Assembly: GCA_964016885.1 (NCBI GenBank)
Contig: CAXHJY010000507.1
Span: forward strand, 1 to 22,256
Direction of reading: 5' to 3'
Origin: Eledone cirrhosa
Taxonomy: Eukaryota
DNA length: 22,256 bases
Numbering within the stretch: the stretch's first letter is position 1; each line of letters starts with the position of its first letter. A program made the translations under genes and the position numbers. The notes beneath the pieces are model-generated. The model worked only from the letters and a program-made list of their open reading frames with translations. It was not told the origin of the DNA and ran no database searches. Below, piece by piece: positions 7,239 through 7,554 of the stretch.

Positions 7239-7293
7239 ACTGCCTGAAGAGGTCACAGCCAAAGATGGCTGTCACTGAAATATATATAGCAGT
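7239..7293 (+). ncRNA. Minimal type I hammerhead ribozyme motif (Penelope-like element type)
   Basis: ACTGC [stem I] CTGAAGA G-GTCACAGCCA AAGA TGGCTGTCAC-T [stem II] GAAA TATATA [palindromic stem III] TA GCAGT [stem I']. AATAAA follows at 7294-7299, then (TA)n. Confidence 0.8.
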
Positions 7294-7480
7294 AATAAAC
7301 GAAGCTAAATTTTAATCATTTGACTTTTATTTAACTTTATTTTATATATATATATATATATATATATATATATATATATATATATATATATATATATATA
7401 TATATATATATATATATATATATATATATATATATATCAAAATGAAAATCCGAAATCAGGGTAAAATTCCAATCATTTAA

Positions 7481-7554
7481 TCACGACACATGTTTCAATA
7501 AGAGATAGATCGATTGTGAAGCCATGATCGTTTATCACTGATCTCATCAGGTGA
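7481..7554 (-). ncRNA. Minimal type I hammerhead ribozyme motif
   Basis: The reverse complement reads TCAC CTGATGA [long imperfect stem II] GAAA CATGTG TC GTGA, giving stem I TCAC/GTGA and a GUC cleavage triplet. Confidence 0.72.

What the first reader, a model, noticed from the sequence alone, without database searches (positions are those of the whole stretch)
7239..7554. Two different hammerhead motifs facing tail-to-tail across one (TA)n tract
Seen: a + strand HHR (7239-7293, with AATAAA next) and a - strand HHR (7481-7554) each end about 45-50 bp from the (TA)n at 7344-7437. Both retain the core boxes, stem I and a short stem III. Established: minimal HHRs with palindromic stem III can cleave as dimers. 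These are the best candidates in the window for catalytic RNA.
Basis: partly seen in the sequence, partly recalled or inferred. Interest (0 to 1): 0.7.

Follow-up and report, generated by a model that had tools for sequence, protein, structure and literature searches.

The report
Facing ends of two Penelope retrotransposons
Both hammerhead-shaped motifs are in the sequence, but they are the end pieces of two different, very abundant families of a known jumping gene (Penelope-like, likely the Hydra group) that likely landed separately in the same TA repeat, so their facing layout is likely ordinary; self-cutting is untested.

Summary
Both type I hammerhead motifs are present as described and exceed chance (0 of 200 shuffles give two). 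Each lies in the terminal repeat (pLTR) of a different high-copy family: A has at least 8,880 core matches in this genome, B at least 1,340. Longer copies of both flank RT and GIY-YIG coding pieces with the Hydra-clade motifs of Penelope-like elements, a clade published as carrying hammerheads and inserting into (TA)n.

The pair is not a unit. Of 189 other A or B ends, none faces the other family. The window's A copy is 100% identical to other copies, its B copy only 96%, which suggests separate insertions. The motifs are on opposite strands with mismatched stem I.

Tail-to-tail is the usual layout: 200 of 216 copies have their 3' end at a TA tract, only 20 their 5' end; recognisable neighbours face them in 24 of 30 cases.

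Side results: 53 of 60 head-to-head pairs join one short end to one tailed end, and nine family representatives share a pyrimidine mismatch in stem II. Cleavage and expression are untested. The scan noted this same arrangement earlier at another locus of this genome. Ordinary; low interest.

The parts
7122..7343 (+). Family A solo pLTR of a Hydra-like Penelope-like element; starts at the family's preferred 5' boundary and stops at the 'short' 3' end (no tail)
   Evidence: 100% identical over 222 nt to copies in at least three other loci; 98% to the pLTRs flanking RT/GIY-YIG pieces in L061; end classes
7239..7293 (+). Type I hammerhead motif of family A; predicted cut after 7288; stem II with G-U closing pair and a C-C mismatch at the fourth position; stem III an 8-nt palindrome
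   Evidence: same as the commonest family form (stem II 57 of 87 parsed copies, stem III 81 of 87)
7294..7299 (+). AATAAA directly after stem I, part of the family A pLTR; role as a polyadenylation signal not tested
7343..7437 (.). (TA)n tract of about 47 units shared by the two 3' ends; the inferred insertion target
   Evidence: 200 of 216 A/B copies have (TA)n at the 3' end
7438..7876 (-). Family B 5'-truncated end piece (pLTR and part of the 3' non-coding region), 'short' 3' end at 7438
   Evidence: 95-96% to the 40 best genomic copies; same repeat flanks Hydra-motif coding pieces in L067, L069, L154
7481..7554 (-). Type I hammerhead motif of family B; predicted cut after 7485; long stem II with a C-U mismatch at the fourth position; one stem II base (7531) differs from the commonest family form and breaks a pair
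   Evidence: commonest stem II form in 58 of 108 parsed copies
7043..7118 (.). (TA)n tract at the 5' side of the family A copy
6749..7040 (+). End piece of another hammerhead-bearing family (H), 3' of its motif, with a fold-back arm at 6749-6813; its 3' end meets the tract 7043-7118
   Evidence: 89-98% to L030
7877..7937 (+). Fragment of family D holding only the 3' half of a hammerhead, joined head-to-head to the family B piece
   Evidence: 92% to L063 and 87% to L060
7986..8119 (-). Family E end piece with a U3-A8 core-variant hammerhead (8083-8054), tail-to-tail with fragment D across the (TA)24 at 7938-7985

Best explanation
The two motifs are the hammerheads in the terminal repeats of two different Penelope-like retrotransposon families (likely Hydra clade) whose short end pieces were likely inserted independently into one (TA)n tract, B likely first and A later. 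Shown: the motifs; their copy numbers; their position in repeats that flank RT and C-terminal GIY-YIG coding pieces with Hydra motifs; two fixed 3' end points per family followed by (TA)n; mostly different neighbours across the tract. Inferred mechanism: the element's endonuclease nicks TA-rich DNA and the RT starts inside the element RNA at one of two sites about 50 or about 150-190 nt past the ribozyme cut site (as shown in vitro for a Poseidon element, PMC11167929). Copying usually stops early and often yields two arms joined head-to-head, so 3' ends point outward on both sides. Any later insertion into the neighbouring TA tract therefore tends to meet an older one tail-to-tail. The ribozymes would cut only as same-family dimers through the palindromic stem III, or with help from the element's protein; here each is a lone passenger on its own strand and likely has no local role.
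For: Copy numbers 8,880 and 1,340 with reversed-pattern controls 0. L061 is inverted pLTR + pLTR-RT-GIY-YIG-pLTR for A. RWK, DKT, CxCX5C and CxxC..CxH occur upstream of both A and B pLTRs and match the Hydra description, which also lists hammerheads and (TA)n targets. 3' ends: A 47 short, 42 tailed, 3 other of 92; B 61 short, 57 tailed, 6 other of 124; 200 of 216 followed by (TA)n, 20 of 216 with TA at the 5' end. 111 of 216 copies have an inverted same-family copy at the 5' junction. Across the tract in 189 other ends: 24 opposite, 6 same direction, 159 unrecognised, 0 A-B. Window A is 100% to other copies, window B 96.1% at best. A and B proteins are 63% and 43% identical in two pieces; their pLTRs share no significant DNA similarity.
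Against: No intact full-length reading frame was seen; the ORFs are in pieces. Pfam gave only GIY-YIG at E 7e-4, below its cut-off, and no RT family in 8 fragments. No tree with published Hydra proteins was built, so the clade rests on motifs. Units are 4.1 kb (A, L061) and about 4.5 kb (B, L154), longer than the under 3 kb typical of Hydra. Copies were the first listed on contig C1 or the best BLAST hits, not a random sample, and 159 of 189 neighbours were not identified. The order of insertion rests on identity to other copies alone. The junction in this 22-kb contig was not checked against reads.
Confidence: 0.9

Rival explanations
1. The two motifs form one functional two-polarity unit, such as a cassette that cuts convergent transcripts or a viroid-like element with a ribozyme on each strand.
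For: Both cores are intact and sit at similar distances (50 and 43 nt) from the tract; each piece holds its family's preferred 5' boundary, a possible start site pointing at the tract.
Against: The distances are simply each family's fixed short end. 0 of 189 other ends pair A with B; 0 of 4 genome-wide hits of a junction pattern for tracts up to about 9 units are A-B. Different divergence from their families. Cross-family stem I pairs poorly, and the stem III heteroduplex is the weakest of the three (-1.6 against -3.2 and -6.0 kcal/mol).
Confidence: 0.03
2. The family A piece is a dedicated non-autonomous mini-element (retrozyme- or SINE-like pLTR derivative) copied from its own short transcripts rather than a by-product of the full-length element.
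For: 30 of 92 A copies begin 120-125 nt upstream of the core and 22 of 124 B copies 76-82 nt upstream, both at ATATGA. Animal retrozymes are reported to derive from pLTRs (bioRxiv 10.64898/2026.07.22.740005).
Against: The window copy is 98% identical to the pLTRs of the coding element L061, many copies extend to varied lengths into the 3' non-coding region and ORF, and among the 100 listed A hits no two on the same strand lie within 1 kb, so no tandem retrozyme array was seen. A fixed 5' end is also expected from a transcript starting in the pLTR of a full element.
Confidence: 0.2
3. The adjacency is an assembly join at a TA tract in a small, repeat-rich contig.
For: The window is a whole 22,256-base contig dominated by satellites and microsatellites.
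Against: The same kind of hetero-family junction occurs 18 times in the sampled loci, nearly all on large contigs, so no artefact is needed.
Confidence: 0.05
4. The motifs are chance matches in AT-rich DNA.
For: No Rfam hammerhead hit; the minus motif does not fold as a hammerhead at minimum energy.
Against: 0 of 200 shuffles give two hits; thousands of copies; 35 of 36 stem II cells not fixed by the descriptor pair across nine family representatives, against 24.3 in shuffles, 0 of 10,000 reaching it (the families are related, so this is not a strict probability).
Confidence: 0.01

Closest known systems
Hydra clade of C-terminal EN+ Penelope-like elements, including Hydra-1_Obim (Craig et al. 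2021, PMC8557442; seen: passages, section 11 whole, supplement rows and passages)
   Same: RWK, DKT, CxCX5C linker, CxxC and CxH around the conserved E and N, C-terminal GIY-YIG, hammerhead near the 3' end, (TA)n targets, partial tandems, inverted 5'-truncated copy, tail at one end only. By eye the L061 pieces resemble the printed Hydra-1_Obim protein.
   Different: Hammerhead sequences differ from the listed Hydra-1_oBim motif, so these are other families. Units are 4.1-4.5 kb rather than under 3 kb. Tails are about 97 nt (A) and about 130-140 nt (B) rather than the 30-40 bp described for PLEs.
Minimal hammerheads of metazoan PLEs (Cervera and de la Pena 2014, PMC4209133; seen: parts 1-2 of 4, abstract to start of methods)
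   Same: Type I, short stem I (4-5 bp), long stem II, palindromic stem III, mostly lone copies; that paper also notes pairs 100-700 bp apart on opposite strands and the U3-A8 core variant.
   Different: Both window motifs close stem II with G-U rather than the conserved G-C, lack the unpaired base before stem II, and carry a pyrimidine mismatch at stem II position 4. The opposite-strand pair here is two families facing tail-to-tail.
PAc (Poseidon, Anolis) in vitro system (Frangieh et al. 2024, PMC11167929; seen: parts 1-2 of 4)
   Same: Two RT start sites downstream of the hammerhead define short and tailed ends; AT-rich target; both strands nicked and extended; predicted dimer; ribozyme cut only with protein.
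   Different: Different clade; there the ribozyme overlaps the start codon, here the likely start codon lies about 210 nt past the cut site (L061).
Non-LTR retrozymes (bioRxiv 10.64898/2026.07.22.740005; seen: part 1 of 5 and passages, supplements not seen)
   Same: Type I hammerhead in short pLTR-related units.
   Different: Defined by tandem units each with a hammerhead; the window copies are single and linked to coding PLE families.

Membership tests
Type I minimal hammerhead | Core boxes CUGANGA and GAAA with U16.1-H17 and stems I and II | tested here: met
   G-U instead of G-C closes stem II in both
Type I minimal hammerhead | Palindromic stem III allowing a same-family dimer | tested here: met
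   AUAUAUAU and ACAUGUGU self-pair; monomer A15.1-U16.1 probability 0.08 and 0.00
Type I minimal hammerhead | Covariation in the stems | tested here: met
   Across nine family representatives 35 of 36 unselected stem II cells pair; within families A and B copies are too alike, and were picked by core patterns, to show it
Type I minimal hammerhead | Site-specific self-cleavage | not testable with these tools
   No assay; no RNA holder listed
EN+ Penelope-like elements | pLTRs flanking an RT plus GIY-YIG reading frame | tested here: met
   L061 for A; L067, L069, L154 for B; frames are broken, Pfam GIY-YIG below cut-off and no RT Pfam hit
EN+ Penelope-like elements | 5'-truncation, inverted 5' copy and optional tail at one end | tested here: met
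   111 of 216 copies with an inverted same-family neighbour; 53 of 60 head-to-head pairs are short plus tail
Hydra clade | RWK and DKT motifs in the RT N-terminal part | tested here: met
   Found upstream of A pLTRs (L061 block) and B pLTRs (L154 block, DKT also L069)
Hydra clade | CxCX5C linker; CxxC and CxH around the conserved E and N of a C-terminal EN | tested here: met
Hydra clade | Absence of the CCHH motif in the EN | not tested
   No alignment with canonical PLE endonucleases was made
Hydra clade | Insertion into (TA)n and a canonical hammerhead | tested here: met
   200 of 216 3' ends at (TA)n
Hydra clade | Placement in the RT phylogeny | not tested
   Published reference proteins were only viewed; no tree built
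Non-LTR retrozyme | At least two consecutive tandem units each with a hammerhead | tested here: not met
   Single copies in the window; no same-strand A neighbours within 1 kb among 100 listed hits; one B pair 939 nt apart among 100 listed

The most novel reading that the evidence does not exclude
The locus is ordinary, but its families record the insertion reaction: each event makes two cDNA arms, one primed at each of the two internal RT start sites, probably by the two subunits of an RT dimer on the two nicked strands (53 short+tail, 2 tail+tail, 0 short+short, 5 unclassified of 60 head-to-head pairs). They also define a subtype of PLE hammerhead with an invariant pyrimidine mismatch after three pairs of stem II (9 of 9 representatives), a likely protein-binding or tertiary-contact site. 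One search for a paper on the arm rule returned only PMC11167929 as relevant; the parts read do not state it, though 'tail at one end only' is published (PMC8557442).
Probability: 0.5. Interest if true: 0.45.

Novelty: new member of a known kind. Interest (0 to 1): 0.18.

Why it matters
The locus itself matters little: it is two of more than ten thousand such end pieces, and it shows that facing hammerheads on opposite strands in TA-rich animal genomes need no special function. The family data are of modest use to people who study Penelope-like elements: young, abundant copies with two sharp 3' ends and a strict short-plus-tail pairing give a direct way to test how these elements prime on both strands, and family A offers a recently active ribozyme to test for dimer or protein-assisted cleavage.

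Tried and rejected
Rfam scan: no hammerhead family at E<=1, only microsatellite-driven miRNA matches. DNA search of the genome with the A piece returned nothing because common words are skipped; a pattern search found it. Expression: no RNA holder listed, which says nothing for or against; no reads were laid. An A-A junction pattern was swamped by an unrelated palindromic repeat (132 per strand, control 43) and was uninformative. The A-B junction pattern sees only exact ends and tracts up to about 9 units; its 4 hits were two B-B junctions, one divergent A end facing an unknown sequence, and one with no library match. My first junction count misclassified tailed copies and was replaced. The family A parse failed and was redone (87 of 92 parsed; B 108 of 124). 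Cofolding two monomers did not give a clean double hammerhead at minimum energy for A-A, B-B or A-B, so dimer folding is supported only by the palindromes. Rejected: chance motif, composite A-B element, tandem retrozyme, A-B heterodimer. A look-up of earlier findings by sequence returned nothing. The host species was not established; PMC13282606 (passages only) added nothing specific.

Full report
Observation. Both motifs are present at the stated coordinates. The plus motif (family A) has a 5-bp stem I, core CUGAAGA, an 11-position stem II with one C-C mismatch, GAA, the palindrome AUAUAUAU, A17 at 7288 and AATAAA next. The minus motif (family B) has a 4-bp stem I, core CUGAUGA, a 47-nt stem II, ACAUGUGU and C17 at 7485. 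A strict descriptor finds only these two in the window; 200 shuffles average 0.02 hits and none gives two. Rfam has no match. A folds stems I and II as predicted (z -2.93); B's lowest-energy fold is different (z -0.35). Neither forms stem III as a monomer (probability 0.08 and 0.00).

What they belong to. A 32-base A pattern has 8,880 matches in the 3.0-Gb genome and a 30-base B pattern 1,340, each with one mismatch allowed and reversed controls of 0. Window 7440-7876 matches the 40 best copies at 94-96%. In L061 two A repeats 4,097 bases apart flank broken RT and GIY-YIG coding pieces, with an inverted A copy upstream; Pfam gives GIY-YIG at E 7e-4, under its cut-off, and nothing for RT in 8 fragments. 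B repeats flank similar pieces in L067, L069 and L154. RWK, DKT, CxCX5C and CxxC..E..N..CxH occur upstream of both families' repeats. Craig et al. 2021 (PMC8557442, section 11) give these as the marks of the Hydra clade, with canonical hammerheads and (TA)n targets. A and B proteins are 63% identical over 81 residues of RT and 43% over 152 residues of the endonuclease, and their end repeats share no significant DNA similarity: two distinct families. No tree was built and absence of CCHH was not tested, so the clade is assigned from motifs.

Anatomy of copies. I merged 189 fetched loci into 152 blocks and kept 216 copies covering the whole motif at 85% identity or more (92 A, 124 B, the two window copies included). 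They are the first hits listed on contig C1 plus 29 best BLAST hits, not a random sample. 3' ends fall at two points: A 52-58 nt past the cut site (47 copies) or 150-153 (42), 3 other; B 44-53 (61) or 170-180, the limit of my reference (57), 6 other. (TA)n follows in 200 of 216. At the 5' junction 111 have an inverted same-family copy, 20 a TA tract, 3 an inverted other family, 12 a same-direction piece, 10 a block edge and 60 were unassigned, some of them running on into the ORF. Of 60 adjacent head-to-head pairs, 53 are short plus tail, 2 tail plus tail, 0 short plus short and 5 have an unclassified arm. 30 of 92 A and 22 of 124 B copies start at ATATGA, 120-125 and 76-82 nt upstream of the core; a transcription start is my inference.

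Is the pair a unit? For 189 non-window ends with at least 80 bases beyond the tract, the neighbour was a recognisable hammerhead-bearing end in opposite direction in 24, in the same direction in 6, and unrecognised in 159 (binomial p 0.0014 on 24 of 30; shuffled motif hits 0.55 against 26). Three same-family junctions are counted from both sides, leaving 21 distinct tail-to-tail junctions, 18 between different families or unnamed motifs, and none A-B; one B end meets an A-related family in the same direction. A genome-wide pattern for short-tract A-B junctions gave 4 hits, none A-B. The window's A copy is 100% identical to other copies over 222 bases, while B's best match is 96.1%, which suggests B is the older insertion. 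The next tract along (7938-7985) shows the same layout with two further families, D and E. The two motifs lie on opposite strands, and their stem I strands do not exchange well.

Mechanism (inferred). Frangieh et al. 2024 (PMC11167929) showed for a Poseidon element that the protein nicks AT-rich DNA on both strands, starts reverse transcription at two internal sites that define the optional tail, and that its hammerhead cuts only with protein and is not needed for insertion in vitro. Applied here: insertions into (TA)n leave 3' ends against the tract, often at both sides because two arms join head-to-head. Since 200 copies have a 3' end and only 20 a 5' end at a TA tract, two insertions sharing a tract will mostly be tail-to-tail. 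Cervera and de la Pena 2014 (PMC4209133) found no monomer cleavage and weak dimer cleavage for such motifs, and already noted pairs on opposite strands 100-700 bp apart. The window copies have no same-family partner nearby, so any cleavage would need a second transcript or protein.

Structure conservation. Across nine representatives with an 8-nt stem III, stem II positions 3, 5, 6 and 7, which the descriptor did not require, pair in 35 of 36 cells (shuffle mean 24.3; 0 of 10,000), while position 4 is a pyrimidine mismatch in 9 of 9. The representatives are related and were chosen by me, so this supports selection on the fold without being a strict test. The window's A motif equals the commonest family form; B differs by one stem II base.

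Novelty. Hydra-clade elements, their hammerheads, (TA)n targeting, inverted arms and one-ended tails are published. These two families differ from the listed Hydra-1_Obim motif; Repbase and Dfam were not available to check. Four literature searches found no paper on hetero-family tail-to-tail pairs as such; subscription journals are mostly missing and bioRxiv supplements were closed. After I had recorded my reading, the scan's notes showed the same arrangement, the stem II mismatch and the fixed ends at other loci of this genome; these are unchecked notes and not independent support. Verdict: real motifs, ordinary origin, new members of a known kind, interest 0.18.

Noticed in passing
window 7874-7937: Family B joins family D head-to-head with about 3 shared bases and no TA between. 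Other-family inverted 5' junctions are rare (3 of 216, against 111 same-family). Could be a deletion or one insertion made from two different RNAs.
   Followed up: partly
window 8083-8054 (minus): Hammerhead with the U3-A8 core variant (family E), recurring in several fetched loci.
   Followed up: partly
window 13647-14117: Near-perfect fold-back (194-nt arms, 99%) holding two head-to-head hammerheads of family G (cores at 13835 minus and 14011 plus).
   Followed up: partly
window 6749-6878: 65-bp perfect hairpin with a 3-nt loop at the start of the family H piece; both arms lie 3' of the hammerhead, which is missing.
   Followed up: partly
window 12526-12653, 12729-13080, 8826-9325: Further dispersed repeat pieces between TA tracts; 12569 and 8916 hold a CUGAUGA core without a complete motif; 12951-13080 matches family G2 ends.
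   Followed up: no
window 1-1357, 1477-2052, 10366-10956, 15277-16679, 17775-21306: Tandem arrays of 47, 166, 118, 108 and 93 bases; the 166-base unit region holds a CUGAUGA at 1461 that was not examined.
   Followed up: no
L192 and L193 (G000:C4, about 94.518-94.531 Mb): The same B-B tail-to-tail junction across a short TA tract occurs twice, 9.6 kb apart and inverted, suggesting a local inverted duplication.
   Followed up: no
L116 and L120 (G000:C1, about 34.40 and 35.42 Mb): Two A copies share the sequence beyond the TA tract, so they are likely one insertion duplicated; counted as two in my tallies.
   Followed up: no
L061 and L067 coding pieces: Both families carry a long low-complexity, R/T/G/N-rich stretch between the RT thumb and the endonuclease linker, which helps explain their greater length.
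   Followed up: no
L195-L200: An unrelated abundant repeat with a short palindrome flanked by inverted AT-rich arms; not identified.
   Followed up: no
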